NCBI GenBank assembly: GCA_019752815.1
Contig: JAIELQ010000014.1
Location: 1,035-65,034 of the forward strand
Reading direction: 5' to 3'
Origin: Patescibacteria group bacterium
GTDB taxonomy: Bacteria; Patescibacteriota; Minisyncoccia; Phycocordibacterales; UBA918
DNA: 64,000 nt
The position numbers and the translations under genes are program-made. The notes under the pieces were generated by a model. It had not been told where the DNA came from. It did not search any database and saw only the letters and a program-made list of their open reading frames with translations. Of this stretch, positions 33,586-62,101 are shown piece after piece (within the stretch, counting starts at the first letter, position 1; each line of letters starts with the position of its first letter).

Positions 33586-33613
33586 AACATTTGCGCGTGC
33601 GCTTTATAGCATA

Positions 33614-38960: not shown

Positions 38961-39038
38961 ACAAGATAAATAGATTTATCAACACTAAACACCAGCCATC
39001 TCGGCTAGGTGTTTTTTGTTTCTGGTATACTAACGGTA

Positions 39039-40052
39039 ATGGAAACTATTGAAGATAATGGAGTTACCTACGTAAAAGCGACTGCTCTTGCAAAAAAGCA
39101 CCGTTATACTACAGACTATATCGGCCAACTGTGTCGGAGTGGCAAAGTTGACGCTAAACTAATCGGGCGTGCCTGGTTTGTAAATGAAGTCACGCTTCAA
39201 AGTCACAAAAGTGATCGATATTCTACGCCTCGTTCAGCCGAGATAACTATAAATAAAAGCCTAGTTTCAGATCGTGCTGCTCACCCAGTAGCATTACGCC
39301 GTGAAGTGCGACCAGTGCTTTCAAAGTCAGTTCATCGATCATTATTGCAAAATTCAGAACCTAAAACGTATAATTTTGAATCACGTGGTGCTGGTCTAGT
39401 CTCTACCTATCATCAGGACGAAGAATTACTTGAACCCCATGTGTCTATAAAACCAAAGCCTGAAGTTGCACACAATCCTGCTGAGTTGGAAACTAAAACA
39501 ATTGAAAAAGCACAAAAAATAAGTGTTTCTTTAGGTGAAAAAGCTTCACAAAAGCTTGCATTTGAAGAATTGCCCGAGGTGTTGTTGCGGGGCGATTTAA
39601 AGGTCGATTCGCTCGATGACCCTGATTTGTTCACTGAAGTTGAGCCGGTTAGGGCCGAGCATATTCAATTTGCACCTCAATCTGTTCTAAAAACAGCTGT
39701 AATCGCTACAAATCCCGATCAAACAGGGGTCACGCATCCAAAAGTGAGGGTTCATCACGTTGAGTCTAGGCAAGTACCTAAAAACCAGGTACGCAATGTA
39801 GTTCCACCTCTCAAAGTTGCTACTGTAATTTATCAGCCTGTGGTAGCACGTGCAGAAACAAATGACATTCCAAAACCGGCAGTGCGATTCATTGTGGTGC
39901 CCGTGTTAGTCACTACTGCGCTGGTAGTTTGTGTAGTGATGTTGGGTCTCGTCAGTTATGCAGAAACCGACGGTTTGCAGTTTCGTCAGTCAGTGAAATT
40001 TTCACCCGCAACTGTCATTGAAGCGGTCTCAAAAATAGTAGAAAGTTATTAA
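39039..40052 (+). CDS. membrane-anchored protein with N-terminal excisionase/MerR-type HTH (HTH_17-like); paralog A
   Basis: YVKATALAKKHRYTTDYIGQLCRSGKVDAKLIGRAWFV fits the HTH_17 pattern (..a..l.vs..ti.rl.r.GkipavkiGrrwri). A long charged linker, then a C-terminal TM (VVPVLVTTALVVCVVMLGLV). TATACT lies 7 nt before the ATG. Confidence 0.5.
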   Translation: METIEDNGVTYVKATALAKKHRYTTDYIGQLCRSGKVDAKLIGRAWFVNEVTLQSHKSDRYSTPRSAEITINKSLVSDRAAHPVALRREVRPVLSKSVHRSLLQNSEPKTYNFESRGAGLVSTYHQDEELLEPHVSIKPKPEVAHNPAELETKTIEKAQKISVSLGEKASQKLAFEELPEVLLRGDLKVDSLDDPDLFTEVEPVRAEHIQFAPQSVLKTAVIATNPDQTGVTHPKVRVHHVESRQVPKNQVRNVVPPLKVATVIYQPVVARAETNDIPKPAVRFIVVPVLVTTALVVCVVMLGLVSYAETDGLQFRQSVKFSPATVIEAVSKIVESY

Positions 40053-40111
40053 CATTAGGGGGCATCAAAATTACCGTTTTACCTATAAAATAATAGGTAT
40101 AACAGTTTTTT

Positions 40112-40828
40112 ATGTCTGCGAAAAGTTTAGTAAAAAAATCTGACTCGATACCGCTCTCGGTAGCAGTCACACTCGTCTCATACTCGCGTGATTACATCGG
40201 TCGACTGGCTCGCGAAGGCAAGATTGTTGCCGAGCAAATTGATCGTGAATGGTACGTCAGTCGAGCGTCACTTTTAAACTTCGCAGAACATTCAACTCTT
40301 GAAGATTCGGTCAAGAAAAAAATCCTTAGTTTGTCGCGAAAAAATGATTTAGAGGTTAAAGATTTTTATACTCAAAAAGTTTCAAATATTAACACTCGTC
40401 AATATTTGGCCCGCACTCAAAGTCTGGTGTTAACGCTTATTATGCTTTTGGGAGGATCATTTCCTGGCTATCTTTTTTACACAAACGCTAATTTGCTTAC
40501 AGGTGCAAAGCCAGTTTCGATTGCAGAAACTCTCGGTTATCTTGATGTCGTCGGGTCTACACAAAGTGCTTTGGTGCCTGCTTCCTCACGGGAAAATGCC
40601 GCGGTGTGGACCGAGGGGTTGGTCGTTGAATCACAAGAATCTATCCCGATGGATGGGGGAATTGTCTTGTTTCCAACCCTGCAACCAAGCGACAAAGCAA
40701 CGGTTGAGGATCTGTTTTCGGATGATGTGACCGTGGTAATAACCAGTACGACAACTGGTTTTGTGCGTTCGGCTGATGGTACGTCCGAGCTACCGTTTGT
40801 GCGCGTGCCTGAGACTACGTCTTTTTAA
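40112..40828 (+). CDS. membrane-anchored protein with N-terminal excisionase/MerR-type HTH; paralog B
   Basis: VTLVSYSRDYIGRLAREGKIVAEQIDREWYV, paralogous to 39039. Central TM (LVLTLIMLLGGSFPGYLFY) then about 110 extracytoplasmic residues. Its stop is 3 nt before the ATG of the giant gene. Confidence 0.5.
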   Translation: MSAKSLVKKSDSIPLSVAVTLVSYSRDYIGRLAREGKIVAEQIDREWYVSRASLLNFAEHSTLEDSVKKKILSLSRKNDLEVKDFYTQKVSNINTRQYLARTQSLVLTLIMLLGGSFPGYLFYTNANLLTGAKPVSIAETLGYLDVVGSTQSALVPASSRENAAVWTEGLVVESQESIPMDGGIVLFPTLQPSDKATVEDLFSDDVTVVITSTTTGFVRSADGTSELPFVRVPETTSF

Positions 40829-40831
40829 AAT

Positions 40832-43800
40832 ATGAGTTTTTACCCGTCAAAAAATAAATCACGTACCGTACTGATAGCCTCAGGACTCCTTTTGATTTTA
40901 GGGATTTATTTCATGGCGAGTTTGGTGAGTGTAGTATGGGCGGCGCCTAATTTGCAGATTAACTACCAAGGTAAACTCACTAACGCCAGCAACGTCGCCG
41001 TCGCAGACGCCGGGTACCAAATGGAATTTAGCTTGTACACGACTGACGTCGGTGGGACTGCCATCTGGACAGAAACCCGTACCGGTGTGAATGAAGTAAT
41101 TGTCGACAACGGTCTGTTCTCAGTAATGCTCGGTAGTGTCAATTCGCTTGCCGGCGTTGATTTTAATCAAACGCTGTATCTGGGAGTAACCGTTGAGGCT
41201 GATTCAGAAATGACCCCGCGCAAGGTCCTAGGTGCAACACCAGCTGCCTTTGAGGCAAATAACGCGACTACGGTAGGTGGAGTAGCCTCAACATCATTGT
41301 TGCGAAATGATCGCATTGGTACGATCGCAACCACCTCAGCATCAACCCTGCTTACTATTACGCAAAGCGGCACCGGTGATATTTTAAATTTGTTTGATGG
41401 CGGTACTGAAGTCTTTAGTGTGCTCGATGGTGGAAATGTTGGGATTGGCTCAACCTCACCATCAGCTAGATTAACAGTGGGTGGGAATGCCTTTATCGCG
41501 GGTAACCTCACCGCTACCGGCTCTCTGAACATTGCTGGCACCTCCACCCTCGCCACTACCACTGTCTCTTCGCTCGCTATCGGTTCACTATCAGGTCTCT
41601 TGTTCGGTACCGCAGGCAACGTATCTACCATCGCTACCTCAACCCTCGCGATTGCACTCGCAGACACCACCGGCACCTTAGCTGCTACTCGTGGCGGAAC
41701 CGGACTCTCCACCATTACCCAAAACCAACTGCTGATTGGTGGAGCCGGTAACACCTGGACACAAGTGGCGACGAGTTCATTGGGGCTCTCCGCTGCCTTC
41801 ACCACCATTGCGCAACTCGACACCCTCATCACTGACGTGACCGGCGTGACCGGTACCGGCAGCTTTGTATTGTCGGCGTCACCGACATTCACCGGCACCA
41901 GTATCTTTGCTAACTCCAGTACCACCAATGCCACCACTACCAACGCCACCACCACGAACTTCACTATTACCGGGCTGACTTCTGGCCGGGTACCGTTTAT
42001 CACAACTGGTGGACGACTTACTGATTCGGCGAACTTGGCGTTTGATGGGACACGTTTGTCGACAGTTAACTTTGGTGCGAGTGGCACGTCATCGCTTTTA
42101 GGTGCTGTTTCAATCGGAACATCCACCCAGCCCTATCTCCTCACGGTGGCGGGTACATTTGGGGTAGTTTCATCGAGTCTCAGTCCAGTGTTTACGGCTG
42201 ATGCGACTACCGGTCGCGTTGCTATTGGCACCAGTACAGCTTCAACTACTGAGACGCTGACGATTGCCGGGGGTTCAATTGATGTACTTCCAAGCGGGCT
42301 CCGTATTGTCGGACAGCTCGACACACTCACTGATAGTCAGGCCGGTCTCGTAGTTGAAGATGGCATTGTGTATGGAGTATCTAATAATCCAGCGACTGAT
42401 TTACATATTGTTGACGCTAGTAATCCACAAAGCCCACGTATCCTTAGTGAGACTAGTGCACCGAGTTCGGGGGATCTAGTTAAAGTTGGAAATTACTTGT
42501 ATATGTTTGGTGGACTCAGTTCTATTGGCGAAGTTGAAGACATTTCTAATCCAAGTGCACCAGTCACAGTCGGAACATTTGATATGGGACAAACAACGCG
42601 AGAAGCAGTTGTGGATGGAAACTACATTTTTGTGGGCACTAATAGTGCGACGACATCTGTGGTTGTGTATGACATCACAAACCGTATCAACCCACAACAA
42701 ATTGCCATCATTAATGCAGGAGCAGCGGTCACTGATTTATCAGTACACCAAAACAAACTCTATCTTGCACTTGCGAGTACTACCGCTGCTTTGCGCATTT
42801 ATAATATTCAAAATCCTGTCGTGCCGACTCTCCTGGGTACGGCTGCTGCCTCATCAACACCAACTGCTATTACCGCGACTAACGACCGGGTGTACCTCGG
42901 TGCGAACGTCAGTGGTAACCGAGAATTGTATGTCTACCAAACGACTAACCCGACTAGTATCCAACTCTTGACCTCGATTGATATTACGACCTCGGTCAGT
43001 GACATGATGGCGGTGGACGAGACCTTATATGTGACGGGTAACTCAGTCCGGGCTTTTATCGCGTATGATATTTCTTCGAGTACGCAGATTATTGAGCAGG
43101 GTCGAGTAAGTCTTGGAGCCAGCACGATCTATGATTTTGATATTGAAGGGCAGTATGCCTATGTGGGTGGACAGGTTCCGACTCAGGGCTTAGCAATTAT
43201 CAAACTATCTGGACTCACTGCACCATCTGTTCAATCGGGCGCCCTCTACGCTGAACAATTACGTGCCCTGCAAGCAAATATTTCCGGCAATCTTAATGTC
43301 GCTGGTCGAGTCGCTTTTGGTCTCGATGCTTCAATTGCCCGAAGGCTTGATGTCGGAACGTCTCTAACAATCGGTACCACGTCAACTTCAAGTAACGCAC
43401 TGACGGTGGCTGGAAACGCGGCATTATTTGGCAATCTCACAATAACTGGTACCACCACCATCTCTAACCTCGCCCTCACCGGCGTCTTCCGCGACGCCAC
43501 CAACGCCTCCGGCACCCTCGGCCAAATCCTCCAATCAACCGGCACTTCAACTCGCTGGGTCGCCACCTCATCACTCGGCCTCCTTACTTCTGCTATCACC
43601 GGTATTGGTCCAGCTGGTCAAATCCAATCAGGCCCAACTATCACCCTTGCCACCTCAACCGGCTCATTTAACGGTCTCACCCTTGGTACCACCATCACCG
43701 CCACCGGCAACACCATCACCTACACCCCAAGTATCACTGGAGCGCTCACCAATGCCGGCATCGCCACCCCATGGTTATCATTTGCAACCACCAGTACCGG

Positions 43801-46800
43801 ATCAGATATTAGTTTCAGTAGTGCCTCATCAACTCTTGGTGGTACCGTTACCCTTAATATTCCGAACGCCGGCCCGTCTGCACGTGGACTCTTAACCAGT
43901 GCTGACTGGACTACCTTTAACGGCAAGATCTCCAGTACCTCACTTGATACCATTGCGGAACTCGACACCCTCATCACTGACGTGACCGGCGTGACCGGTA
44001 CCGGCAGCTTTGTGCTTTCAACCTCACCGACATTTACAGGGACCGCATCATTTGCGAGTACTACGAACTCCGGACAACTCACCGTGACTGGTACTTCAAC
44101 TCTCGCTACAACTAGCGTTTCCTCCCTCGCGATCGGTTCACTCTCTGGTCTCTTATTTGGTACCGCAGGCAACGTATCTACCATCGCTACCTCAACCCTC
44201 GGTATCGCGCTGTCTGACACCACCGGCACACTGGCTGCTACTCGTGGTGGAACCGGACTTTCCTCATATGCTACTGGTGATTTGATTTATGCCTCTGGCG
44301 CGAACACACTCGCTAATCGAACTATCGGCTCAACCGGTAATGTACTCTCGGTGGTTGGTGGGGTGCCAACGTGGGTGGCTACCTCGACACTTGGTTTGAG
44401 TGGGTTGTCGACGTTCCTCGGGCTAACTGATACACCATCTTCATACACTGCCAACCGTATCTTCTTTACTAATTCAGGGGCTACCGCGGTGACTGACAGT
44501 GCGAACTTTACCTTTGATGGGACACGATTGTCGACACTTAATCTCGCAGTAACTGGCACTTCAACATTCACTGGCACCTCAACCTTTGCCACCAGTACTT
44601 TTAGTCGAATTAACATCGGCACCACAACATCAGCAGGATTGATTACACTCGCCGGTGGCGGTGTGGTCGCTACTACGCCTAATAATCTTCGTGTCGCGGG
44701 CACCTTTAACACGAGTGGGAGTGCAAACGGAGTAGCGGTTTCTGGACGCTATGCGTACGTGGCTGATAGTTCTGCTGGTCTGCAGATTATAGATATCTCG
44801 CGACCAAGTAGCCCGTCTCTTGAGGGTACCTTTAATACGTCTGGTAACGCATATGACGTGAAAGTGGTTGGACGCTATGCGTACGTCGCAGATGGTGCGA
44901 GCGGTCTACAGATTATTGATATTAGTAATCCAGCCAGTACGACATTGGTTGGAACATATGATACAAATAACGCCGAAGGTCTTGATGTGTCTGGCCGGTA
45001 CGCGTACATCGCTGATGCAACCACTGGTTTAGTAATTGTTGATATCAGTAACCCAAGTAACCCAACCTTGGTAGTGAGTTATGACACTACGGGTATATTT
45101 GCAACTGATGTGGCGGTGGTTGGCCGCTACGCATATGTCGCAGATGGACTTGCCGGTCTTCAGATTATTGATGTGACCAATCCAGCGGTACCGGTTTTGA
45201 TGAGTACGTTTAATACTGCTGATAATGCGACGGGTGTGTATGTTGTGGGCCGCTATGCGTACGTCGCAGATGGTGGTTCGGGTCTGCAAATCGTAGATAT
45301 TAGTAATCCAGCAATTCCAACCCTCGCTGGTTCAGTTGATACACCAGGCACCGCTAACGATGTGGTGGTAGCGGGTGGTATTGCATATCTCTCAGACTTC
45401 TCAAGTAGTCTCCAGGTGATTGATGTTTCAAATGCAACTTCTCCATTTATTCTCCAGTCATTTGTTACAACTGGAATTATGAACAATGTCGCCATCGCGG
45501 GTCGGTATTTGTATGCTGGTGACAATACAGCTGGACTCCAGATTGTCGATATTAACGGCTCTGATTTCTCGTCACTATTTGCGGGTGCTCTGGGAGCAAC
45601 GGAGGCAAATTTCGATAGTAATTTGATCGTTGGAAACGACATTACTGTTGGAGGCAAACTGTCAGTCGGGCATGATTCGATAATTAACGGCGGACTTACC
45701 ATTATAGGTACCGCGTCTTCTACATTGCTCGGTAATAACACTGGTCCTGGTTTGGTGGTTGCCACTGGCAACGTCGGCATCGGCTCAACCTCACCATCGG
45801 CAAAACTTACCGTTGCAGGTGCTGGATTCTTTGGTGGTAACCTCACTGCTACCGGATCCCTCGCTATTTTCGGAACCAGCACCCTCGCCACCACTTCTAT
45901 CGCTCGACTCGCTCTCGCTGGAGCGTTCCTTGATTCAACGAATGACAGTGGCACTTCTGGTATGGTCTTGCAATCATCCGGCACCTCAACTCGCTGGGTT
46001 GCTACCTCAACGCTTGGTTTTGCAACCGGGGTTTCAAACTTCCTTGCTCTCTCCGACACACCGGATGTATTTACCGCTAATCGAATTCCATTTACGAATG
46101 GTGCAGCGACTGCCTTAGTTGATAATGACAACTTTACTTACTCAAGTAGTACCCAGTTCCTCACTCTAGGGGGTAATCCTTCACTTGAGTATGGTATCAA
46201 CTTTGGCGGAGCGGGCAGAATTTATGGAACAAATTCGTTAGGCACTGAAGATCTTGTTATGATTAGTTCAAACAATATTTTCTTGGCTAGTGGTGATGAT
46301 TCTAGTAGTATTGATGTGAGTCTCGGAGGCGTATTTAGTATCTTCGCAGCCACTTCGACTACTATAATTAGTCCAGTCATTACTGCATTGGGTGACCTTA
46401 CTGTAACAGGATCTCTTGGTATCTCAGGCACCACCACCCTCGCCACCACTACCGTGACAGATTTGTTTGTCTCGGCTGCACTGCGTGACACAACAAATTC
46501 GGCGGGTACCCTTGGTCAAATCCTCCAATCAACCGGCACCTCAACTCGTTGGGTTGCCACTTCAACCCTCGGCTTTTCTGCCGCCTTCACCACCATCGCT
46601 CAACTCGACGCCCTCATCTCAGACGTGACCGGAGTGACTGGTACTGGAAGCTTTGTGTTATCAGCGTCACCGACGTTTACCGGCACCAGTATCTTCGCGA
46701 ACTCAAGCACCACAAACGCGACAACGACTAACGCCACTACAACTAACTTTGCGATTACCGGACTGACTTCAGGTCGGGTGCCGTTTATTACTACTGGAGG

Positions 46801-49876: not shown

Positions 49877-49926
49877 AATTAATCACGACAAAACAAAAGT
49901 CAGCATCTAGAACATTACACATATAT

Positions 49927-50694: not shown

Positions 50695-50698
50695 AGTC

Positions 50699-53600
50699 AT
50701 GTACTCAAACGATGGTATTACCTGGGCCACCTCAAGTGCCGCCGGTAATAATGATAGCTGGATATCGGTCACGTATGGTAATGGGCATTATGTGGGAGTT
50801 GGTAATTCTGGTGACCGAGTCATGTACTCAAACGATGGTATTACCTGGGCCACCACCACTGCTTCCGGTGATAATGATAGCTGGAATAGTATCACGTACA
50901 TAAATGGTCGATTTACGGTAGTCGGATCTGGACCGGGTACTAACCGAGTCATGTACGCGAATGCTTTTAATATTCTAGAACAAACGGCGTTTCGTTTCCG
51001 GGCTGATGACGGCAGTGAAATTGCGGCCAGTTATCGTGGAGGGCAAAACCAAAACCTCACCACTCCTACCAGTACCGCATTTCGATTGCGTGCTCAGGTA
51101 GCATCAACCATTGATCAGAATCTCCTTGGTGGATTTAAACTGCAGTACCGAGAAACTACTGATGATAGCTGGTTTGATGTCGGAGTTGATCAGGGTGCGC
51201 CATCAATTGTGGCGGCCACTTCAAGTCGTACTGCTGGGGACGTGCTCTCTCGTACTGTCGCGTTACCGACTTGTACGGCCGGAAATCTTTTGTTAGCGGT
51301 CGTTAGTTATGATGGTGTCGGTTCGGCAACTACCACGCTTTCTCAGGGTTGGACCAAATTTGCGGAACGCTCCAATGCACTTGTCGTATCGAGTGTGCTG
51401 TTTTGGAAATATTCGACGGGGAACGATACTCTCACTGTGCAAACCCCGGTGTCGGAGGAAAGTTCACATGTTGTGTACTGTATTGCAAATGCTGGTGCCC
51501 CATCAGCTTCGGGGGCTGATAGTAGTGGTACCGGCAGTAATCCACCCTTACATCGCGCCGGGCCAACCAGACAGCATCTCTGGATTGTGGTCCGTTCGGG
51601 TGATGCGCAAATACAGGCGACGGCGGCACCAACAGGCTATACAGCACCCATTGTGATAACGGCCAATACCCTTACTGGTGCTTCAACGTATACAGCATTC
51701 TCCATGTTCCTGTCTTCGACAACTGACCCCGGTACTTTTACGAATGCGGTTGAAGAGTGGGTGGCCTGGACGATTGCGGTGCCGCCACGACATACACCAG
51801 TCGTGGGGACGGCTGGCATGATGACCCATGCGACTGCAACCGGTGCCAATAATACCCAATATGGTTCGATTGCCTGGACTAATCCAAACAATGCTCGTTC
51901 ATCTGATAATGCTCGGGCGACCTTGACGGTCTCTAGTACGACAGCTTCTAACAACCTAACGGTTTCAAGTCTTGGTTTTGCAATTCCAGCCGGAGCAACC
52001 ATTCTGGGGATTGAGGCTGAAGTAGAAAAAACTCAGACGGGTGGTGCAGCAGGTAATGTGCGTGACAACAGTATCCGACTGCTAAAAAATGGTACGACTA
52101 CAGGTATTGCCAATCTTGCTCAGACAGCCACCAACTGGCTGTTGACCACCGATTACCTTATTACCTACGGGAGTACAACCGAGTTGTGGGGGACGACGTG
52201 GACGCCTGCTGATATTAACAACTCGGGCTTCGGTCTCGCAATTGCCGTCCAGGGTGCTGCTGTGGGAGCTAACCGGGTGGCTAACATTGATAACGTGATT
52301 ATCCGTGTACACTACCGCTTACCGGGTAGTATTGCGCTGGCCTCATCAACGTTTATAGCCAGTGGGGCACCGTCAACCACTGCACAACTGCTAACCCCGG
52401 GCACCATTGCCGCTACCTCAACCGGCTTTTCGGCTGGTCGGGTGACCGATGATGTGGCCGTGCTCAATCAGTTGTCAGTCGTTACCAGTCGTTATACCGA
52501 ACTCGAGTGGACACTGGTTGCTACGGGTACGGCCACGACCGGTTCACAATATTTACTTCGGGTGGTTTCTGAGAATGGGGACCCACTGCAAGCCTACAAG
52601 ACAACACCATTTGTACGTATCAGCAACGCAACCACTACCGGAGTGATAAACATTTCAGGCAGAGTGCTCGGTCCAACCGGTTCTGCAACCATACCAGCAG
52701 GTGTACCGATTGTGGCTGCGGTAGGGCAATTAAATCCTGTGCTATACGCCACTACCACCTCCGCCACTGGTGCGTATACATTTTCCATAGCTACCGGGAC
52801 CACACCGGGTGCGAGCTGGGATGGAGTATCAGCTGTGGGTAATAATGATATCTGGCAAAGTGTGACCTACGGCAATGGTCTCTTTGTGGCCGTGGGTAGT
52901 ACATCAGTTGATAATGTTATGATTTCAACTGACGGAATCGCCTGGGCTACTACTTCAGCGGTCGGTAACAACGACTCGTGGGAGAGTGTAACCTACGGCA
53001 ACGGCCGCTTTGTGGCAGTGGGTGATGCCGGGGATCGGGTGATGTATTCAGATGAGGGTATTGTCTGGAACACCACCTCAGTGGCTGGCAATAATGATAG
53101 TTGGCGAAGTGTAACCTACGGCAACGGCCGCTTCGTAGCGGTGGGTAGTGCTGGTGACCGGGTGATGTATTCAGACGATGGTATATCCTGGACTGTAGTG
53201 ACGGCTCTTGGTAATAATGATTTCTGGCAAAGTGTAACCTACGGCAACGGCCGCTTCGTAGCGGTGGGTGATTACCTGCAGCCTGGAGATGGGGTGATGT
53301 ATTCAGACGATGGTATATCCTGGACTGTAGTTTCAGCTGCTGGAAGTGACGATACGTGGCGATCGGTAACCTACGGCAACGGCCGCTTTGTAGCGGTGGG
53401 TGAGGGTGGTGACACTCGTGTCATGTATTCGACTGACGGTATCTCTTGGACTACCGCTTCTGCTTTAGGAAACAACGATACTTGGACATCAATAACCTAC
53501 GGCAACGGCCGGTTTGTAGCGGTGGGTGTTGGTGATGTTGTCAGTGAACAGGCGATGTATTCGACTGACGGCATCTCTTGGACGGTAGCGTCTGCACCAG

Positions 53601-56600
53601 CAGGAGCTAATACGTGGCGATCGGTAACCTACGGCAACGGCCGCTTTGTAGCGGTCAGTGCTTCTGGTCAGCCAGTGATGCTTTCTGATGCCGGTATTGG
53701 CGACACTACTCCTGCCGTCGTCTACACCAATAACGCCACTACCAGTGCAGCGGGTTTTATGATGGGACTCTCTGGCACCACCAGTCAAAGTAATGTCGTA
53801 CTGTATCAAAATGATGTCACCGTATTAAATGCCACCACCTCAGCGACCTCTAGTATTACCAAACTCGATGACATGACTTTCTTTGACAGTTCATTTGATA
53901 GTAATGTGGGCTATAGTGCGTCCCGAGACGGTACCCTCACCTTCACAGATGACCTCCGGGTTGCGACCGGCACTGCTCAGTTTTTGGGTAGAGATTTTAG
54001 AGTCGAGCAAGAAGTTGAGATTCAAGGGGTATTAGATTTATTTGGAACAGCATCAAACACGATTAATAGTCTCGTAGTCGCTACATCAGGTCGACTGGTG
54101 GGAACGCGTAATGGTTTGATAGTCGGCAGCTACAACAATAATGGGACGGTGGTTACGAATGGGGCGACTACGACCTTTGTTGGTTTAACTGGATACAACA
54201 CGCAGTATCCCGTGTTTCAAACCAGTACGACCACCGAATCTGTAGGTAGCACAATGAATGGTATTGCTATGTCTGAAGATGGGACAAAGTTTTTCTATAC
54301 TAACTTTGACCAAGTAAAAGAAGTGACGCTCAGTGTCCCGTACGACCTGCGGACTGGTTCCATCACTCATACTGTAGATCTAGAGAATGGATTTTATATT
54401 ACGACTGAAAGTCTGCATGTGGTGCAGGATGGTCGCAAAATGTATGTCAGTGGCTGGCAAAATGACACGATTAAAGAATACACCCTGAGCGTGCCATGGA
54501 ATCTCTCCACTGCCACGTTTACGGCAAGTACTAGTTTGGGGGCAAATAACTTCCCGCATTCAGTCTTTGTGTCAGACGATGGTCAACATTTGTACTCGAC
54601 CGTGCGGTCGCCAGAGCGAATTCGGCAATACCGCTTTGCGGTGCCGTACGATATCACGAGTCTCGTTTTCGTAGCTTCAACCAGTAATAATGAACGAATT
54701 GCAAGTAACGCTATTTGGGCCAGTCCCGATGGCGAATTTCTGATACAAGCAGGCGCTCAGGGGTCTATTAATCGCTTGCGGATGACGACGCCGTGGGATA
54801 TCACATCCCTAGTGACAGATAACAGTGGCAACAGTGTTTTGACTGAGTTAATCACAGACAATAATCGAGATGTGGAGGGTTTTTGGTTTGATCGTACCGG
54901 TACCAAAATGGTGGCCATAACTGCTGATCGAATCGCGGCCCTCTACACCCTCGGGGCAGACATTGGTGGTAATCTCACGGGGTCATCATCACTTGGTAGT
55001 GTTGTGTTTGACGGTGGGAAGAGCACGTTTGTCTCGTCAGCGAGTACTACCAATTTGCACGTCAATCCGAACGCAATTTTGGTGGCTCCGACGACTACGC
55101 TTAGCATAGCAGGTAATTACCTCAACACAGGTGAGTTTGATCATGCGAGTTTTAACGGTACCGTGGTATTAAGTGGTACAAGTAGTAGTATTACTGGGAG
55201 TACTACCGGTACCAGTAGCTTGAATAATCTGGTAGTAACGGGGAATTATTCGTTTGCTGGGGCCGGTACTACATCGGTGCGTAATATGACGGTGGTACCA
55301 GGTGCAACGCTTAATTTTGTAGCTAATAGTGGACTTGAGGTAGCGGAGAATTATACAAATAATGGTACTACAACTCTCCCAACCACACGCATAGTCGCTA
55401 CTGGTCGGGGGTTTGACTTGTCTCAGGCCCCACTGGGGAACGAATATTCTGTAGGGGCGCAAACCTTTGAACCTCGTGGAATTGAGTTTTCAGCTACCGG
55501 AAGCCTCATGTACATCACTGAGACTAGTTCAAATCAAATATTGGCCTACCGTTTAGGTATTCCGTGGGAGGTGTCAACCGCTAGTTATCTATATGCCACC
55601 AGTGTCGGAGCGGTCTCTTCAAATGTGACCTCGATTAGGTTTAAGCCGGATGGGATGCGCTTATTTGTCACAAATTATGATAATGATTTCATTGCCGAAT
55701 ATGCCCTCTCAGTGCCGTGGGATATCCGTACGACGTCGTTTCTGGCTACGACTTCGTCAGCCTTTAACATAACTAGTATTGATTTCTCTCGTGATGGTAC
55801 GAGGTTCTATGTACATGGTATCCAAAACAATGGCGTAACAAAGCAGTATACCCTGGGTGTCCCGTGGGACCTCAGTACACAAACGTACACTGACGGGTAT
55901 TATAGTACTCCAGCATTTACCTTGGCTAGTACCATTAGTGCTGATGGGACCAGCTTCTTCCAAAAAGTGGGAAGCGCTATAAGACAGTATCGGTTATTGG
56001 TACCACATGACTTTAATACCGTCCAAATTGTCGGTGATTTTGATTTGTCGCCATTTATGGATCATAACGGTGTCGAAGAAATGACCTTTGATAATGATGG
56101 TACACGGATGTACCTCACGAGTAACTTTACTGACAGTGTCTTTCAATTTAATCTGATTGACTCGCAAACGTTCGGAGGCACTATGACCGGCACTTCATCT
56201 CTGGCTAACTTCCGCGCCTCCAGCACGCTGCCGCTAACATTTGCCGCGACCGCTTCCACGAGTGACTTTACGATTGTGCCTGGCGCAGTAGTATACGCTC
56301 CAACCTCTACCCTGATTGTGTCAGGTAATTTCACTAATGCTGGCACCTTTATCCCGCGTGCTGGTACTACTACACTCTCTGGTACTGCTAGAACTATCAC
56401 CGGGAATATCACCTCATTGGACTCTGTCACCAACAGTCCTGACTACGGTCTTGCCAATATTACTGGAACCTATACATATATAGGTAACGGTACGACTTCA
56501 GCGCTCACGATTAATTCCGGTGCGTCTTTGACAGCTCCGAGTAACGGTAGACTAATGATTGCGCATGATTTTATCAATCGCGGTACGTATACCAATAACG

Positions 56601-59600
56601 GTGCGACGACTACGCTTGGGGGTAACTTGCGCTCGGCTGCGACGGGGACTAATGCGCTCGGGAACACTGTTATTGATGCTCGGAGTCAGGGGCAAAACTG
56701 GCAGGCGCTGACACCGGCGGGAAATAATGATGCCTGGATGGATGTCACCTATGGAGAAGGTCGTTTTGTAGCAGTGAGTCAGTTTAGTGGTGACAAAGTG
56801 ATGTACTCAGATGATGGGGTGTCGTGGACCGCATCGGCTGGTACGGCAGGCGATTGGAATGCCGTTACCTACGGCAACGGCCGTTTTGTCGCGGTGGGGT
56901 TTGCAGGCTCTAACCGGGTGATGTATTCCGATGATGGTATCACCTGGAACGCGGTATCGGTTTTCGGTGATAATGACAGCTGGGTGAGTATCACTTACGG
57001 CAACGGCCGTTTCGTAGCCGGGGCGTCTAGTGGCGATAACCGGGTGATGTATTCGGACGATGGTATCTCGTGGAATGCAGTTTCGGTGTTTGGTAATAAC
57101 GATGAATGGAATGCCGTCACCTACGGCAACGGCCGCTTTGTGGCGGTAGGTGCTGATTGTGGTTCGAGTCCTAGTATGATGTATTCCGCTGACGGAATTA
57201 ATTGGGCATCTTCAACTATTGGTATATGTAAAGTGTACGGTGTCACCTACGGTAACGGCCGCTTCGTGGCGGTGGGAGCATTCAGCGGTACCCCAATTCA
57301 GTATAGTGAGGATGGTGTCACCTGGACCCCAACCACAATCTCTTCAGGTAATTGGTATGATGTCACCTACGGTAACGGCCGCTTCGTGGCGGTTGGTAAT
57401 TTTGCGGCGGGTGACGGTTTGGCATATTCGTCTGATGGTGTTAATTGGGCAACCTCATCAGTTGCCGGAAACGACGAATGGTGGCAGGGTATTGCCTACG
57501 GCAACGGCCGTTTCGTAGCAGTGGCTGAAGACGGCACAAATCGTGCAATGGTTGCTCTCCCGCAAACGATATTCAACCAAAACGCCTCCACCACTAACCT
57601 CACCATTACCGGTAGCTCAACGTTAAACGCCTCTGGTACTACAGTCTCTGTTGCTGGCAACTACCAAAACCTCGGTACGCTCACAGCCTCCACTTCGACC
57701 TTTGTATTTAACGGTACTGGACCACAAGTCGCCAGCGGTACGATGTCAGCGAGCAGTAGCTTCCGCAACCTAACCCTCAGTAACACCTCCGGCAACGGCA
57801 CCACCTCACGTTCGATTACCTTTGGCGCACCACTCTCAGTCACGGGAACTTCGACGATTACCGCGAGTACCTCGGTAGCCTTCCAAGCGGGCGCCACCTC
57901 GACGTTCTCGCAGGTGTCGTGGCAGGGGACAGCAGGATCGCCCGTATGGCTACGATCAACTGCCACTGGTACACCATGGAACCTCACCATTACCGGTAAT
58001 AAAACTGTGGATTATGTTAATGTGCGTGATAGTAACGCAACCTCGACGGTGGGTGGTATTACACCTACAAATAGTACGAATGCCGGCAATAATACCAACT
58101 GGATCTTTGGTGGTGGACCGGTAGCGCAGGTTTGGAACGCAACAGATTGGACCTTGTTCGATACCATTACTATTCAAGAAGAAAACATCGATGCCACCCT
58201 CACTGATTTCCCGGTGTACGTTAATCTCGCTGATCTCAGTAGTACATTCTGGAGTACTACACCTGCGGGAGCTGCCTTGGTTGGTACGGACATTCGCGTA
58301 ACAACTGCTGATAATATCGAGATACCTCGTGAACTGGTGTTTGCATCTTCGACACTTGATACGGGTGAGCTACACTTTAGAGCGCCACAGATTTTATCGA
58401 CTACTGATACCACATTTAAGATTTGGTACAACGGGACAACGACGGGGGATTATGCTCGCACCGCCACCTACGGAACTGAGAATGTGTGGACGAATGATTA
58501 TGTAGCCGTCCTTCACCTTAATGAAGTGGGTAACAGCACTGCAAACGGCTATCTCGATTCAACAACAAATGGTTTTGATGGTACCGGTATCTCTATGACA
58601 GCCACTAGTTCGGTTACTGGAAAGTTAGGTGTTGCTCAAGATCTTGACGGTGTCAGTGACTATATCGATTTGGTTGGAAGTGTCACCTTGGGTAGTTCAA
58701 CCATTAGTACGTGGGTTAATGTTGCCAGTGCAGATCTTCAGCCGTGTGATGGTCTGGTTTTCTCACGCGGGACAAATGTGAGTGGTATTAATGTCGGAAA
58801 CTGTTCCGATGGTTTAAATGTCGGCTATCACTGGAATGATGCACAGTTTGGATGGGCTACCGGTTCGCCAGTGGTGACAAACCGATGGTCCTATATAGCA
58901 CTTGCAGTTGGGGCAGATAGAGCTACTACGTTCAGTAATGGTACATCAACAACAAATGTAGCCACGCACGCAACTTCAACATTTGATGATATACGCATTG
59001 GTGAAGATGAATTTAATGACCGACGATTCAATGGTCAGGTTGATGAGGTTCGCATAGCCTCTACTACTCGTTCGGCAGCTTGGCTCAAAGCTGAGTACAC
59101 AAACCAATCCACCACCACCAACTTCTACACCGTTAACTTGTCTGGGGTAGTTGGCTCGTCTACAATCAGTAACTCCGTCGCGGGGCAGGTTGGGAACGCC
59201 TTCACCTCCCAGAACGTGACCGACGGTACGCTCTATAGCTTCAGGGTAGTACCAAATAGTGGTACAGCTGATGCCACCGAAGTGAGAATTGACGTTACCG
59301 GCCTCCAGAACGTTAACCCTGAAAACTTTAGTAACATGCGGATAGCGTGGGACTTTAATGAAAATGGAACTTTCGACGTTGAAGATTTTGTGATTGTCGA
59401 CAGCGGCCTCTTTACCGCAAATGGTCAAAACGGTTCAATCGCATTTGATGATAATAACGTAACCTTTGGTGGCTCAAATACTCTAACCGGACCAATTAAC
59501 CTGCTTATAATCGCTAACTGGACTGCTCCGCAGAACGGATCGTTTATGACTCTCCGCTTGAATCCTAGTGGACTGACCCTTGTTGATGGTAACGGTGTGC

Positions 59601-60247
59601 AACAAATATTCGGTTCAGTATCGAGTGTTCAGCACTTCCGTAATAATCGTGGTGGTGGTGGCAGTAGTGCTAGTGCTGGCGGTAACGCGCCAGCTGGAGC
59701 AGGGAACGTGGGTGGTGGTGGCAGTACGGGTGGAGAAAATATTGGCAATGATCCAGATTTCTTCTCACCAAGTAGTAATAGTGGATCGTGGTCAAGTGGC
59801 GCCAATGCCTATGACGGTGTTGACGGCACGTATGCCACAACGAGTGCCGCCTACAATCATAGTTACAGTAATCATGGTTTTGGTATCCCAGGCACCAACG
59901 TGATTAGTGGAATTATTGTGAAGTTAGAGTTATCTGGTTCAACTGCGGCTGGAACAGTTAATGTGCAATTGTCATGGGATGGAGGTAATACCTGGACTAC
60001 TGCCAAGACCAGTCCAACCCTCACGACTGCTGATGCGGTCAGAACCTTTGGTTCTCCGAGTGATCTCTGGGGTCGTGCGTGGAGTGCGAGTGAATTTACC
60101 AACCCTAACTTTGCGGTGCGCATTGCCGGTAATCCAAGTAGTAATACCGTGAGGCTCGACGCGATACAGGTTCGGGTATACCACACCGCCGGTGGTGGTG
60201 GGGCCGGAGGAGGAGGTGGAGCAGGTGGTGGCGGGGGAGGAATCTAA
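50699..60247 (+). CDS. second giant surface protein, main part (3182 aa): BNR/Asp-box propeller repeats, SVPWDxxT repeat module, LamG/ConA-like domain, poly-Gly C-terminus
   Basis: 12 or more copies of VMYSxDGIxWxxxS...NDxWxSVTYGNGRFVAVG. LamG-like: FDGTGISMTATSS...DGVSDYIDLVG...RFNGQVDEVRIASTTRSAAWLKAEY. C-terminus AGGGGAGGGGGAGGGGGGI. Confidence 0.65.
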   Translation: MYSNDGITWATSSAAGNNDSWISVTYGNGHYVGVGNSGDRVMYSNDGITWATTTASGDNDSWNSITYINGRFTVVGSGPGTNRVMYANAFNILEQTAFRFRADDGSEIAASYRGGQNQNLTTPTSTAFRLRAQVASTIDQNLLGGFKLQYRETTDDSWFDVGVDQGAPSIVAATSSRTAGDVLSRTVALPTCTAGNLLLAVVSYDGVGSATTTLSQGWTKFAERSNALVVSSVLFWKYSTGNDTLTVQTPVSEESSHVVYCIANAGAPSASGADSSGTGSNPPLHRAGPTRQHLWIVVRSGDAQIQATAAPTGYTAPIVITANTLTGASTYTAFSMFLSSTTDPGTFTNAVEEWVAWTIAVPPRHTPVVGTAGMMTHATATGANNTQYGSIAWTNPNNARSSDNARATLTVSSTTASNNLTVSSLGFAIPAGATILGIEAEVEKTQTGGAAGNVRDNSIRLLKNGTTTGIANLAQTATNWLLTTDYLITYGSTTELWGTTWTPADINNSGFGLAIAVQGAAVGANRVANIDNVIIRVHYRLPGSIALASSTFIASGAPSTTAQLLTPGTIAATSTGFSAGRVTDDVAVLNQLSVVTSRYTELEWTLVATGTATTGSQYLLRVVSENGDPLQAYKTTPFVRISNATTTGVINISGRVLGPTGSATIPAGVPIVAAVGQLNPVLYATTTSATGAYTFSIATGTTPGASWDGVSAVGNNDIWQSVTYGNGLFVAVGSTSVDNVMISTDGIAWATTSAVGNNDSWESVTYGNGRFVAVGDAGDRVMYSDEGIVWNTTSVAGNNDSWRSVTYGNGRFVAVGSAGDRVMYSDDGISWTVVTALGNNDFWQSVTYGNGRFVAVGDYLQPGDGVMYSDDGISWTVVSAAGSDDTWRSVTYGNGRFVAVGEGGDTRVMYSTDGISWTTASALGNNDTWTSITYGNGRFVAVGVGDVVSEQAMYSTDGISWTVASAPAGANTWRSVTYGNGRFVAVSASGQPVMLSDAGIGDTTPAVVYTNNATTSAAGFMMGLSGTTSQSNVVLYQNDVTVLNATTSATSSITKLDDMTFFDSSFDSNVGYSASRDGTLTFTDDLRVATGTAQFLGRDFRVEQEVEIQGVLDLFGTASNTINSLVVATSGRLVGTRNGLIVGSYNNNGTVVTNGATTTFVGLTGYNTQYPVFQTSTTTESVGSTMNGIAMSEDGTKFFYTNFDQVKEVTLSVPYDLRTGSITHTVDLENGFYITTESLHVVQDGRKMYVSGWQNDTIKEYTLSVPWNLSTATFTASTSLGANNFPHSVFVSDDGQHLYSTVRSPERIRQYRFAVPYDITSLVFVASTSNNERIASNAIWASPDGEFLIQAGAQGSINRLRMTTPWDITSLVTDNSGNSVLTELITDNNRDVEGFWFDRTGTKMVAITADRIAALYTLGADIGGNLTGSSSLGSVVFDGGKSTFVSSASTTNLHVNPNAILVAPTTTLSIAGNYLNTGEFDHASFNGTVVLSGTSSSITGSTTGTSSLNNLVVTGNYSFAGAGTTSVRNMTVVPGATLNFVANSGLEVAENYTNNGTTTLPTTRIVATGRGFDLSQAPLGNEYSVGAQTFEPRGIEFSATGSLMYITETSSNQILAYRLGIPWEVSTASYLYATSVGAVSSNVTSIRFKPDGMRLFVTNYDNDFIAEYALSVPWDIRTTSFLATTSSAFNITSIDFSRDGTRFYVHGIQNNGVTKQYTLGVPWDLSTQTYTDGYYSTPAFTLASTISADGTSFFQKVGSAIRQYRLLVPHDFNTVQIVGDFDLSPFMDHNGVEEMTFDNDGTRMYLTSNFTDSVFQFNLIDSQTFGGTMTGTSSLANFRASSTLPLTFAATASTSDFTIVPGAVVYAPTSTLIVSGNFTNAGTFIPRAGTTTLSGTARTITGNITSLDSVTNSPDYGLANITGTYTYIGNGTTSALTINSGASLTAPSNGRLMIAHDFINRGTYTNNGATTTLGGNLRSAATGTNALGNTVIDARSQGQNWQALTPAGNNDAWMDVTYGEGRFVAVSQFSGDKVMYSDDGVSWTASAGTAGDWNAVTYGNGRFVAVGFAGSNRVMYSDDGITWNAVSVFGDNDSWVSITYGNGRFVAGASSGDNRVMYSDDGISWNAVSVFGNNDEWNAVTYGNGRFVAVGADCGSSPSMMYSADGINWASSTIGICKVYGVTYGNGRFVAVGAFSGTPIQYSEDGVTWTPTTISSGNWYDVTYGNGRFVAVGNFAAGDGLAYSSDGVNWATSSVAGNDEWWQGIAYGNGRFVAVAEDGTNRAMVALPQTIFNQNASTTNLTITGSSTLNASGTTVSVAGNYQNLGTLTASTSTFVFNGTGPQVASGTMSASSSFRNLTLSNTSGNGTTSRSITFGAPLSVTGTSTITASTSVAFQAGATSTFSQVSWQGTAGSPVWLRSTATGTPWNLTITGNKTVDYVNVRDSNATSTVGGITPTNSTNAGNNTNWIFGGGPVAQVWNATDWTLFDTITIQEENIDATLTDFPVYVNLADLSSTFWSTTPAGAALVGTDIRVTTADNIEIPRELVFASSTLDTGELHFRAPQILSTTDTTFKIWYNGTTTGDYARTATYGTENVWTNDYVAVLHLNEVGNSTANGYLDSTTNGFDGTGISMTATSSVTGKLGVAQDLDGVSDYIDLVGSVTLGSSTISTWVNVASADLQPCDGLVFSRGTNVSGINVGNCSDGLNVGYHWNDAQFGWATGSPVVTNRWSYIALAVGADRATTFSNGTSTTNVATHATSTFDDIRIGEDEFNDRRFNGQVDEVRIASTTRSAAWLKAEYTNQSTTTNFYTVNLSGVVGSSTISNSVAGQVGNAFTSQNVTDGTLYSFRVVPNSGTADATEVRIDVTGLQNVNPENFSNMRIAWDFNENGTFDVEDFVIVDSGLFTANGQNGSIAFDDNNVTFGGSNTLTGPINLLIIANWTAPQNGSFMTLRLNPSGLTLVDGNGVQQIFGSVSSVQHFRNNRGGGGSSASAGGNAPAGAGNVGGGGSTGGENIGNDPDFFSPSSNSGSWSSGANAYDGVDGTYATTSAAYNHSYSNHGFGIPGTNVISGIIVKLELSGSTAAGTVNVQLSWDGGNTWTTAKTSPTLTTADAVRTFGSPSDLWGRAWSASEFTNPNFAVRIAGNPSSNTVRLDAIQVRVYHTAGGGGAGGGGGAGGGGGGI

Positions 60248-61027: not shown

Positions 61028-61051
61028 CGTACACTGGCACTAACATAGGTT

Positions 61052-62098: not shown

Positions 62099-62101
62099 AC
62101 T

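What the first reader, a model, noticed from the sequence alone, without database searches (positions are those of the whole stretch)
39039..60247. Operon of two membrane-anchored HTH paralogs translationally coupled to two giant beta-propeller surface proteins
Two paralogous proteins (39039-40052 and 40112-40828) share an N-terminal excisionase/MerR-type HTH (YxxDYIGxLxRxGKxxAxxIxRxW). Each also has one TM helix, placed differently: at the C-terminus in A and centrally in B, so only B carries an extracytoplasmic domain. B ends 3 nt before the ATG of a 3014-aa protein built from fibre-like repeats and LVIVD propellers. A second giant gene of 3430 aa or more follows 51 nt later, with Asp-box propellers, a LamG domain and a poly-Gly tail. 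Taken together, a DNA-binding domain tethered in the membrane, an extracytoplasmic sensor on B, and co-transcription with surface adhesin-like giants suggest a one-component transmembrane regulatory or anchoring module specific to these giant proteins. That would explain how a reduced-genome, possibly episymbiotic cell controls its attachment apparatus. I do not recognise this arrangement as a described system.
Basis: partly seen in the sequence, partly recalled or inferred. Interest (0 to 1): 0.75.

Follow-up and report, generated by a model that had tools for sequence, protein, structure and literature searches.

The report
Membrane-tethered HTH pair heading surface-appendage locus
Two related membrane proteins with DNA-binding-type heads sit at the start of a conserved gene cluster for giant surface fibres and a CPR-type pilus in a group of ultra-small bacteria; they are plausible but unproven controllers of the cell's attachment gear.

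Summary
A (39039-40052) and B (40112-40828) share an N-terminal Xis/MerR-type winged HTH, and each has one TM helix, N-in/C-out. B's stop lies 3 nt before a 3014-aa LVIVD-propeller giant. The second giant is split by a frameshift near 50686.

The window is a Patescibacteria (Paceibacteria-type) contig. The gatB-A-B order was present in every related locus complete enough to show it, 42 loci from representative genomes in all. A starts a transcription unit. A giant ORF abuts B's stop in 32 of 36 informative loci.

Four species have no giant. There A-B, with B's ectodomain motifs intact, directly precedes homologues of window genes C-F (60338 to the window end). These resemble the recently described CPR Pam pilus operon. 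So A-B is not specific to the giants.

A unique, covarying 13-bp inverted repeat lies just before B's ATG. DnaA-box-like motifs lie upstream of A, B, C and secA.

Best reading (about 0.4): a new variant of membrane-bound one-component regulators, as with ToxR/TcpP or ArnR/ArnR1. An anchoring role, or a role unrelated to the surface genes, is not excluded. DNA binding is untested.

The parts
38976..38984 (+). DnaA-box-like motif TTATCAACA, 63 nt upstream of A's ATG
   Evidence: TTATN[AC]ACA sits at -61 to -67 from A's ATG in 14 of 43 loci.
38990..39017 (+). Terminator-like hairpin plus T-run after gatB (CACCAGCC..GGCTAGGTG TTTTTT)
   Evidence: Read from the sequence. An equivalent hairpin plus T-run is visible after gatB in many of the loci printed (not counted). 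The scan tool reports it only on the minus strand because of a bulge.
39023..39031 (+). Extended -10 promoter element TGGTATACT, 7 nt before A's ATG (leaderless or near-leaderless mRNA)
   Evidence: TGnTAnnnT ends 6-14 nt before A's ATG in 41 of 43 loci, against a background of 0.05 per 40 nt. An SD-like sequence is present in only 3 of 43.
39039..40052 (+). Gene A: cytoplasmic Xis/MerR-type wHTH (1-62), about 220-residue disordered linker with conserved short motifs, TM 284-302, 31-residue external tail
40046..40054 (+). DnaA-box-like motif TTATTAACA overlapping A's stop codon, 66 nt upstream of B's ATG
   Evidence: The motif lies at -59 to -66 from B's ATG in 28 of 43 loci (one more at -72, 29 in all), plus 5 loci where it overlaps A's stop.
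40080..40099 (+). Inverted repeat TACCTAT-N6-ATAGGTA just upstream of B's ATG. Candidate RNA hairpin and/or operator overlapping a TATAAT-like element
   Evidence: Single exact copy in the window. In 42 species, 13 pairs are 86% paired and 9 covary, against 27-48% for slid controls. G-U:A-C mismatch ratio is 45:13. No second copy in any locus. RNA fold z-scores -3.0 to -5.0.
40112..40828 (+). Gene B: cytoplasmic wHTH (10-50), continuous helix 51-130 (charged coiled-coil-like segment plus TM 104-122), variable linker, conserved extracytoplasmic beta-alpha-beta-beta-beta domain (about 180-233)
40832..49876 (+). Giant 1 (3014 aa): N-terminal signal-anchor, fibre-like Thr/Ser/Gly-rich repeats, LVIVD propellers, Gly/Pro/Glu-rich tail. 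ATG is 3 nt after B's stop
   Evidence: (Bdello_MAT_N-like N-terminus at 22.5 bits; choice_anch_B).
49927..50694 (+). Giant 2, 5' fragment (255 aa): signal-anchor plus Asp-box-like repeats. Ends at the frameshift
50683..50690 (+). Frameshift site in a CGGGGC run. The repeat unit continues in the next frame
50699..60247 (+). Giant 2, 3' fragment (3182 aa; the reading frame is open from 50687): propeller repeats, Laminin_G_3, poly-Gly tail
60338..61027 (+). Gene C: secreted pilin-like protein, paralogue of E
   Evidence: 38% identity over 166 aa, E 6e-21.
61052..62098 (+). Gene D: signal peptide, WxLIP_PGBD-like domain, C-terminal TM and basic tail. Same architecture as the membrane-anchored chaperones PamC/PamD
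   Evidence: 27.1 bits against cut-off 27.3; L044 orthologue 28.4 bits; EfmWxLIP1, E 0.0014.
62102..62866 (+). Gene E: PamT-like secreted pilin-like protein
   Evidence: NF058579 CPR_pilus_PamT, E 1.3e-12, 47.7 bits (equivalog cut-off 240); NF058581, E 0.027.
62872..64000 (+). Gene F (runs off the window): signal peptide plus fibronectin-III-type repeats, possibly PamR-like
   Evidence: (fn3 in the L044 orthologue).

Best explanation
A and B are a lineage-wide, single-copy, always-adjacent pair of bitopic membrane proteins (N-in/C-out). Their cytoplasmic heads are Xis/MerR-type winged HTH domains.

Locus layout (shown):
- A and B open a transcription unit. It starts at a conserved extended -10 just after the gatB terminator, so the A mRNA is leaderless or nearly so.
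- In most species one or two highly variable giant fibre/propeller proteins follow. The first abuts or overlaps B's stop.
- A Pam-like, chaperone-assisted pilus gene set (C-F) comes next.

Most likely mechanism (inferred): A and B act as membrane-bound one-component DNA-binding regulators, working like ToxR/TcpP or ArnR/ArnR1. B would dimerise through its long juxtamembrane helix and read an envelope or contact signal with its small conserved ectodomain. It would act on the unique inverted repeat around the TATAAT-like element in front of its own gene. This would set expression of B and of the giant adhesin coupled to it.

A has a roughly 220-residue disordered linker with conserved short motifs. 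It would be a partner or modulator.

Shown: fold, topology, synteny, the promoter element and the cis-elements. Inferred: DNA binding, the target sites, signal sensing and co-transcription.
For: Fold:
- AlphaFold2 models both N-termini at pLDDT above 92, as beta-alpha-alpha-beta-beta winged HTHs.
- 34 of 40 B-family members hit Pfam HTH_17.
- The invariant residues cluster in the recognition helix and the wing.

Topology: one TM helix each, with the K/R-rich side facing the HTH. In B the wHTH runs straight into an 80-residue helix.

Operon head: TGnTAnnnT ends 6-14 nt before A's ATG in 41 of 43 loci.

Coupling to the giant: the gap between B's stop and the next ORF is -20 to +11 nt in 32 of 36 informative loci.

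Candidate operator: a 13-bp-arm inverted repeat before B's ATG, with covariation in 9 of 13 pairs, one copy per locus.

Precedent: two paralogous membrane-bound regulators control surface-appendage genes in Sulfolobus (PMC6396743).

Within the A-to-F cluster, A and B are the only genes found to carry a DNA-binding-type domain.
Against: - No DNA-binding or expression data exist.
- Mismatches in the inverted repeat are mostly G-U on the sense strand (45 against 13). This points to an RNA hairpin rather than, or as well as, a DNA operator.
- The -60 boxes match the DnaA-box consensus. Upstream of secA the motif is the perfect TTATCCACA in 17 of 32 loci. DnaA, not A or B, may therefore read them.
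- Tight translational coupling to a 3000-aa structural protein is more typical of assembly partners than of regulators.
- A has almost no ectodomain and a very long disordered linker, unlike ToxR-type regulators.
- The whole neighbourhood (Wzy-MurB-SecA-Obg-GatB ... GAPDH) is syntenic, so adjacency alone is weak evidence of a functional link.
Confidence: 0.4

Rival explanations
1. Assembly or anchoring partners. B, and perhaps A, is a structural membrane platform for the surface filaments. B's ectodomain would dock the conserved N-terminal base of the giant fibre or the Pam-like pilus. The cytoplasmic wHTH would act as a protein-interaction or nucleoid-contact module, as RodZ's HTH binds MreB (from my own knowledge).
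For: - B's stop and the giant's start are translationally coupled in 32 of 36 loci.
- Wherever a giant is present (32 of 36 informative loci), G1-like similarity begins right after B and extends into the giant, while the giants' lengths and domain content vary.
- B's ectodomain has invariant motifs: G.LLFP, LFSD.V, PFV.VP.
- A carries conserved short linear motifs in a long disordered linker.
- Protein-binding MerR-like folds exist: CbpM, DafA.
Against: - B, with its ectodomain motifs intact, persists in four species that lack any giant.
- The HTH keeps the signature of DNA-binding excisionase/MerR domains, and it is the most conserved part of both proteins.
- The Pam pilus paper lists no such component.
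Confidence: 0.22
2. A core lineage-specific function unrelated to the surface genes, for example envelope or division housekeeping. The giants would simply occupy a permissive, well-expressed slot downstream of B in a very stable syntenic block.
For: - A-B occurs at one locus per genome and is present at every related locus, always between gatB and the surface genes, within a block of housekeeping genes.
- The giants are variable in size and content and are absent in four species.
- The B family is large and uniform, with 265 50%-identity clusters at E <= 1e-30.
Against: - Wherever a giant is present it abuts or overlaps B's stop, over deep divergence (27-50% identity in B).
- When the giants are absent, the next genes are still surface-filament genes.
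Confidence: 0.2
3. Chromosome-membrane tether (RacA-like), or a device that holds the locus at the membrane. The membrane-anchored wHTHs would bind DNA near their own genes and so favour co-transcriptional, co-translational export of the very long secreted proteins.
For: - RacA is among the structural matches.
- secA lies 3 kb upstream, and a shared box motif precedes secA, A, B and C.
- Giant 1, giant 2 and C-F all carry N-terminal signal-anchors.
Against: - This is purely inferential.
- The boxes fit DnaA better.
- The palindrome has one copy per locus and a bias that suggests RNA.
Confidence: 0.1

Closest known systems
ArnR/ArnR1 of Sulfolobus acidocaldarius (membrane-bound one-component regulators of the archaellum and pili; PMC6396743)
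   Same: Two paralogous membrane-anchored HTH proteins that regulate surface-appendage genes. The cytoplasmic DNA-binding head is at the N-terminus.
   Different: ArnR/ArnR1 are archaeal. They differ in HTH class and sensor architecture and have C-terminal TM segments. Their promoter binding has been shown experimentally. Here nothing has been tested, and the HTH is of the Xis/MerR type.
ToxR/TcpP, CadC (ToxR-like bitopic transcription activators; from my own knowledge)
   Same: N-in/C-out bitopic topology, a cytoplasmic winged HTH and a periplasmic sensor domain. Two such proteins cooperate to control pilus and virulence genes.
   Different: The ToxR family uses an OmpR/PhoB-type wHTH and short linkers, and has partner proteins (ToxS, TcpH). 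A and B have Xis/MerR-type wHTHs. A has a 220-residue disordered linker and almost no ectodomain.
Excisionase / MerR N-terminal wHTH superfamily (Pfam HTH_17; Pukovnik Xis 4j2n, BldC 6amk, GlnR/TnrA, RacA)
   Same: The same beta-alpha-alpha-beta-beta fold, and the sequence signature R..GK(I/V).A..IGR.W.V.
   Different: The known members named here are soluble proteins: recombination directionality factors, transcription factors and a chromosome anchor. A and B are fused to TM helices. They sit in a chromosomal, non-mobile context with no integrase and no PHROG hits.
RodZ (from my own knowledge)
   Same: A bitopic protein with an N-terminal cytoplasmic HTH, a linker, one TM helix and an external domain. 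Its HTH binds a protein (MreB), not DNA.
   Different: RodZ has an XRE-type HTH and a RodZ_C domain. Neither appeared among the Pfam matches, and the fold here is Xis/MerR type.
Pam pilus system of CPR bacteria (Troman et al. 2026, bioRxiv 10.64898/2026.03.03.709456), for the downstream genes C-F
   Same: Secreted pilin-like paralogues, one with PamT similarity. A chaperone-like protein with a C-terminal TM helix. An FnIII protein. A tail-fibre-like giant neighbour.
   Different: The paper reports the highest Pam pilin prevalence in Saccharimonadia and Microgenomatia. The window is from a Paceibacteria-type lineage. Scores are far below the NCBIfam equivalog cut-offs. The paper describes no HTH-TM genes.

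Membership tests
HTH_17 / excisionase-MerR winged-HTH superfamily | Sequence match to Pfam PF12728 at the gathering score | tested here: inconclusive
   Window B scores 18 bits against a cut-off of 27 (E 0.0036), and A has no hit. Across the family, 34 of 40 B homologues match at E <= 0.01, best 7.6e-7. The A and B N-termini are homologous (hhalign 97.9%).
HTH_17 / excisionase-MerR winged-HTH superfamily | beta-alpha-alpha-beta-beta winged-helix fold superposable on Xis/MerR N-domains | tested here: met
HTH_17 / excisionase-MerR winged-HTH superfamily | Binds DNA | not testable with these tools
   Only candidate sites were found: the inverted repeat before B and the -60 boxes.
Membrane-bound one-component regulators (ToxR/CadC type) | N-terminal cytoplasmic DNA-binding domain, a single TM helix and a C-terminal extracytoplasmic sensor domain | tested here: met
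   Met for B: wHTH 10-50, TM 104-122, and a conserved external domain of about 55-110 residues. Only partly met for A, whose external tail is 31 residues.
Membrane-bound one-component regulators (ToxR/CadC type) | OmpR/PhoB-type winged HTH (Trans_reg_C) | tested here: not met
   There is no Trans_reg_C hit, and the fold matches are Xis/MerR. A and B therefore work like this family at most; they are not members.
Membrane-bound one-component regulators (ToxR/CadC type) | Binds promoters of target genes and changes their transcription | not testable with these tools
   Needs EMSA or DAP-seq, and expression data.
MerR-family transcription regulators | wHTH followed by a long dimerisation helix and a C-terminal effector domain, with a palindromic operator inside an over-long -35/-10 spacer | tested here: inconclusive
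   B has a wHTH followed by a long helix, but the helix leads into a TM segment, which implies a parallel arrangement rather than the antiparallel MerR coiled coil. The palindrome overlaps a TATAAT-like element, but no -35 element or 19-20 bp spacer was identified.
RodZ | XRE-type HTH (HTH_25 or similar) and a RodZ_C periplasmic domain | tested here: not met
   Neither family appeared among the Pfam matches, and the fold is Xis/MerR type.
Pam pilus system (genes C-F only) | Pilin or tip pilin matching the NCBIfam Pam models at their cut-offs | tested here: not met
   E matches NF058579 PamT at 47.7 bits against a cut-off of 240 (E 1.3e-12), and NF058581 at 14.6 against 55. C has no hit but is a paralogue of E. 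These are homologous or similar genes, not equivalogs.
Pam pilus system (genes C-F only) | Secreted two-domain chaperone retained by a C-terminal TM helix | tested here: inconclusive
   D has a signal peptide, a WxLIP_PGBD-like domain and a C-terminal TM helix with a KRK tail.
Prophage or mobile element (excisionase context) | Integrase, capsid or terminase genes, phage protein families, variable chromosomal location | tested here: not met
   A, B, C, D, E and the ends of giant 1 give no PHROG hits. The position between gatB and the surface genes is fixed in all 42 related loci.

The most novel reading that the evidence does not exclude
A and B would define a new class of membrane-tethered Xis/MerR-type DNA-binding (or RNA-binding) proteins. 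They would act as the lineage-wide master switch of the Paceibacteria attachment apparatus. They would bind cis-elements in their own locus (the unique palindrome or hairpin before B, and the boxes before secA, A, B and C). In doing so they would hold the locus at the membrane and gate transcription and translation, and so co-translational export, of the giant adhesins and a Pam-like pilus in response to host contact sensed by B's ectodomain.
Probability: 0.15. Interest if true: 0.8.

Novelty: new variant of a known kind. Interest (0 to 1): 0.55.

Why it matters
Very little is known about gene regulation in Patescibacteria, or about how these episymbionts control host attachment.

- This locus brings together a conserved pair of membrane-anchored HTH proteins, hypervariable giant fibre/propeller proteins, and a gene set resembling the Pam pilus described in 2026.
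- If A and B regulate or anchor this apparatus, they are the first handle on how attachment is controlled in a large part of the CPR.
- The conserved cis-elements make the hypothesis directly testable in vitro without cultivation: the leaderless promoter, the covarying hairpin or palindrome before B, and the DnaA-box-like motifs.
- If A and B turn out to be unrelated core proteins, the finding still stands as a well-defined hotspot for giant surface genes.

Tried and rejected
- **Alternative genetic code for the break in giant 2:** rejected. The break is a frame change, not an in-frame stop, and the repeat unit continues in the next frame.
- **Prophage or excisionase remnant** (HTH_17, a 'tail-fibre-like' giant, and a holin_4_2 gene in relatives): rejected. 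There are no PHROG hits, the chromosomal position is fixed in all 42 related loci, and no integrase was seen.
- **RodZ and ToxR-family membership:** rejected on HTH class.
- **Sequence search of the PDB with the B profile:** no hits. C and E also gave no meaningful PDB sequence hits.
- **HTH-only profile search for distant HTH-TM relatives in other CPR classes:** returned only 12 short fragments. The two contexts I inspected were again Obg-GatB-linked. Association outside this lineage therefore could not be tested.
- **afdb50 fold library:** unavailable.
- **The -60 box as a general promoter element:** rejected. Only three copies occur in the 64-kb window, upstream of the small ORF/secA, of A and of B.
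- **The -60 box as an operator specific to A and B:** left open. It fits the DnaA-box consensus, and the copy upstream of secA is a perfect match.
- **A second copy of the palindrome elsewhere in the loci:** none in 42 loci, 638 kb in total.

Full report
**1. What is in the sequence**

ORF listing and translation confirm A (ATG 39039-40052, 337 aa) and B (40112-40828, 238 aa).

- Their similarity is confined to the first 55-70 residues, the shared motif being Y-[ST]-x-D-Y-I-G-x-L-x-R-x-G-K. Pairwise BLASTP gives E 5e-8. Profile-profile hhalign gives 97.9% probability, E 5.5e-13.
- An HMM of this domain finds only A and B among all six-frame ORFs of the window.
- Each protein has one strongly hydrophobic segment: A 284-302 and B 104-122. 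K/R residues are richer on the HTH side, which gives an N-in/C-out orientation.
- B's stop is 3 nt before the ATG of a 3014-aa ORF with a signal-anchor and LVIVD propellers.
- The second giant starts 50 nt later. A frameshift in a CGGGGC run near 50686 splits it into 255-aa and 3182-aa ORFs, and the repeat unit runs on in the other frame. It carries Asp-box-like repeats, a Laminin_G_3 domain (51.1 bits) and a poly-Gly tail.

**2. Structure of A and B**

AlphaFold2, run with family alignments, gives these models:

- **B:** a beta-alpha-alpha-beta-beta domain (residues 12-50, pLDDT 93-97). It continues into an unbroken helix (51-130) that includes the TM segment. A variable linker and a small beta-alpha-beta-beta-beta ectodomain follow.
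- **A:** the same head (pLDDT above 92), a disordered stretch from residue 65 to 285, the TM helix, and a confident 31-residue hairpin-plus-helix tail.

Pfam HTH_17 is sub-threshold for the window's B but matches 34 of 40 family members. The same fold also appears in the protein-binding members CbpM, DafA and TorI, so the fold alone does not prove DNA binding.

**3. Organism and conservation**

A and B are 100% identical to NCBI proteins from a 'Patescibacteria group bacterium' contig of 74 kb.

- B-type proteins form a large, uniform family: 265 50%-identity clusters at E <= 1e-30, nearly all 225-336 aa long.
- A scan of the collection holding one genome per GTDB species returned 42 loci, labelled Kaiserbacteria, Nomurabacteria, Paceibacterota and similar. 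The gatB-A-B order was present in every locus complete enough to show it; two loci are short end-of-contig fragments.
- Where it could be inspected, the wider block Wzy_C-MurB-SecA-(holin_4_2)-Obg-GatB-A-B is also conserved.

**4. Relation to the giants**

- Of 36 loci with enough downstream sequence, 32 have a large ORF starting -20 to +11 nt from B's stop. Often this is an ATGA overlap. G1-like similarity begins right after B's stop in these loci.
- The giants differ greatly in length and domain content, from 1844 to 3164 aa when complete.
- 23 of the 42 public contigs end within 2.5 kb of B, as expected for repetitive or heterogeneous genes.
- Four species (L028, L033, L044, L049) have no giant. 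There B is followed after 113-316 nt by homologues of window genes C, D, E and F, and then by GAPDH, RpiB, Rpe and transketolase.
- B's ectodomain motifs (G.LLLP, LFSD.V, PFVVVP) are fully conserved in those four species.

A-B is therefore a constant of the locus and the giants are a variable insert. A-B cannot be a module that exists only for the giants.

**5. The downstream genes resemble a Pam pilus operon**

- E hits NCBIfam NF058579 'CPR-type pilus protein PamT' at E 1.3e-12, far below the equivalog cut-off.
- C is a paralogue of E.
- D has a signal peptide, a WxLIP_PGBD-like domain and a C-terminal TM helix with a basic tail. [quoted passage not shown]
- F carries FnIII repeats, as PamR does.

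The Pam paper (bioRxiv 10.64898/2026.03.03.709456) notes that a tail-fibre-like protein co-localises with pam operons. It found the highest Pam pilin prevalence in Saccharimonadia and Microgenomatia. It mentions no HTH proteins.

**6. Cis-elements**

- **(a) Promoter of A.** After gatB there is a hairpin plus T-run. TGnTAnnnT then ends 6-14 nt before A's ATG in 41 of 43 loci, against a background of 0.05 per 40 nt. There is almost never a Shine-Dalgarno sequence. A therefore starts a transcription unit with a leaderless or near-leaderless mRNA.
- **(b) Inverted repeat before B.**
  - Just before B's ATG lies an inverted repeat with arms of up to 13 bp, centred on a TATAAT-like sequence (window 40080-40099).
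  - Over 42 species, 86% of cells pair, against 27-48% for slid controls.
  - 9 of 13 pairs change on both sides.
  - Mismatches are G-U on the sense strand 45 times and A-C 13 times, which favours an RNA hairpin.
  - It folds with z-scores of -3 to -5.
  - There is exactly one copy per locus.
  - It may be an RNA element controlling B and the coupled giant, an operator overlapping an internal -10, or both.
- **(c) Box motif.**
  - TTATN[AC]ACA lies at -59 to -66 from B's ATG in 28 of 43 loci (one more at -72), plus 5 loci where it overlaps A's stop, including window 40046.
  - It lies at -61 to -67 from A's ATG in 14 of 43 loci, including window 38976.
  - Density in these regions is 3-9 per kb, against 0.16 per kb overall.
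  - It also precedes C in 7 of 8 loci.
  - A perfect DnaA box, TTATCCACA, lies upstream of a small Lys/Ala-rich ORF and secA in 17 of 32 loci, including window 33268.
  - These may be true DnaA boxes rather than sites for A or B.

**7. Interpretation**

The anatomy is secure. It comprises two N-in/C-out bitopic proteins with Xis/MerR-type heads at the start of an operon, a coupled variable giant adhesin, and a Pam-like pilus set next door.

The best-supported mechanism, at about 0.4, is a membrane-bound one-component regulator pair. It would be analogous to ArnR/ArnR1 (PMC6396743) or ToxR/TcpP. It is not a member of either family, because the HTH class differs.

Three rivals remain:
- an anchoring or assembly platform, favoured by the translational coupling but weakened by the giant-less species;
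- a core function unrelated to the surface genes, with the giants sitting in a hotspot;
- a DNA-membrane tether.

None can be excluded without binding or expression data.

**8. Novelty and score**

The A/B family is unannotated: NCBI calls the proteins 'hypothetical' and 'winged HTH domain-containing'. It has no NCBIfam model and is not mentioned in the Pam paper. Membrane-tethered regulators beside surface-organelle genes are, however, a known kind. I rate it a new variant of a known kind, interest 0.55.

Noticed in passing
window 60338-64000: Four genes after the giants resemble the CPR Pam pilus operon. C and E are pilin-like paralogues, and E has PamT similarity. D is a WxLIP-like chaperone candidate with a C-terminal TM helix. 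F is an FnIII protein. [quoted passage not shown]
   Followed up: partly
window 40080-40099 (extended stem about 40073-40106): A covarying inverted repeat or RNA hairpin lies directly upstream of B's ATG. It is conserved in 42 species, has one copy per locus, and shows a G-U bias on the sense strand. It gave no Rfam match at gathering threshold.
   Followed up: yes
window 33268-33276, 38976-38984, 40046-40054: DnaA-box-like 9-mers (TTATCCACA, TTATCAACA, TTATTAACA), all on the + strand. They sit at fixed distances upstream of the small ORF/secA, of A and of B, and upstream of C in relatives. There are only three copies in 64 kb.
   Followed up: partly
window 39023-39041: A conserved extended -10 (TGGTATACT) lies 7 nt before A's ATG with no Shine-Dalgarno sequence, which implies a leaderless or near-leaderless mRNA. 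The same arrangement is seen in 41 of 43 loci.
   Followed up: yes
window 50683-50690: A frameshift in a CGGGGC run splits giant 2 into 255-aa and 3182-aa ORFs. It could be an assembly error, a pseudogene or a variable tract.
   Followed up: partly
window 33426-33587: A small ORF of about 53 aa made of Lys/Ala-rich repeats (AKKAVKKVAKK...). It looks histone-H1-like. It lies upstream of secA and is conserved as a 53-57-aa ORF in related loci.
   Followed up: no
window 36198-36559: A 360-nt gap between secA and obg with no ORF of 60 aa or more on the + strand. Most relatives encode a 111-113-aa Phage_holin_4_2-family membrane protein here. tblastn finds no remnant in the window.
   Followed up: partly
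window 40916-41143 (giant 1 residues 29-104): The N-terminus of giant 1 weakly matches NCBIfam Bdello_MAT_N, the mosaic adhesive trimer fibre of Bdellovibrio (22.5 bits, E 8e-5). This suggests a trimeric fibre base.
   Followed up: no
loci L009-L043 (public MAG contigs): 23 of the 42 representative-genome contigs end within 2.5 kb downstream of B. Assemblies systematically break inside the giant genes.
   Followed up: partly
window 2445-2559: SAM riboswitch (RF00162, 52.1 bits) upstream of the ORF at 2748-3695.
   Followed up: no
L050 9392-9637 (-) and L051 9027-9323 (-): In two other Paceibacteria-type contigs (L050 is labelled Zambryskibacteria), a small soluble MerR/HTH_17 gene lies on the opposite strand between gatB and the A-like gene. 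In L050, dnaA and dnaN lie about 8 kb upstream.
   Followed up: no
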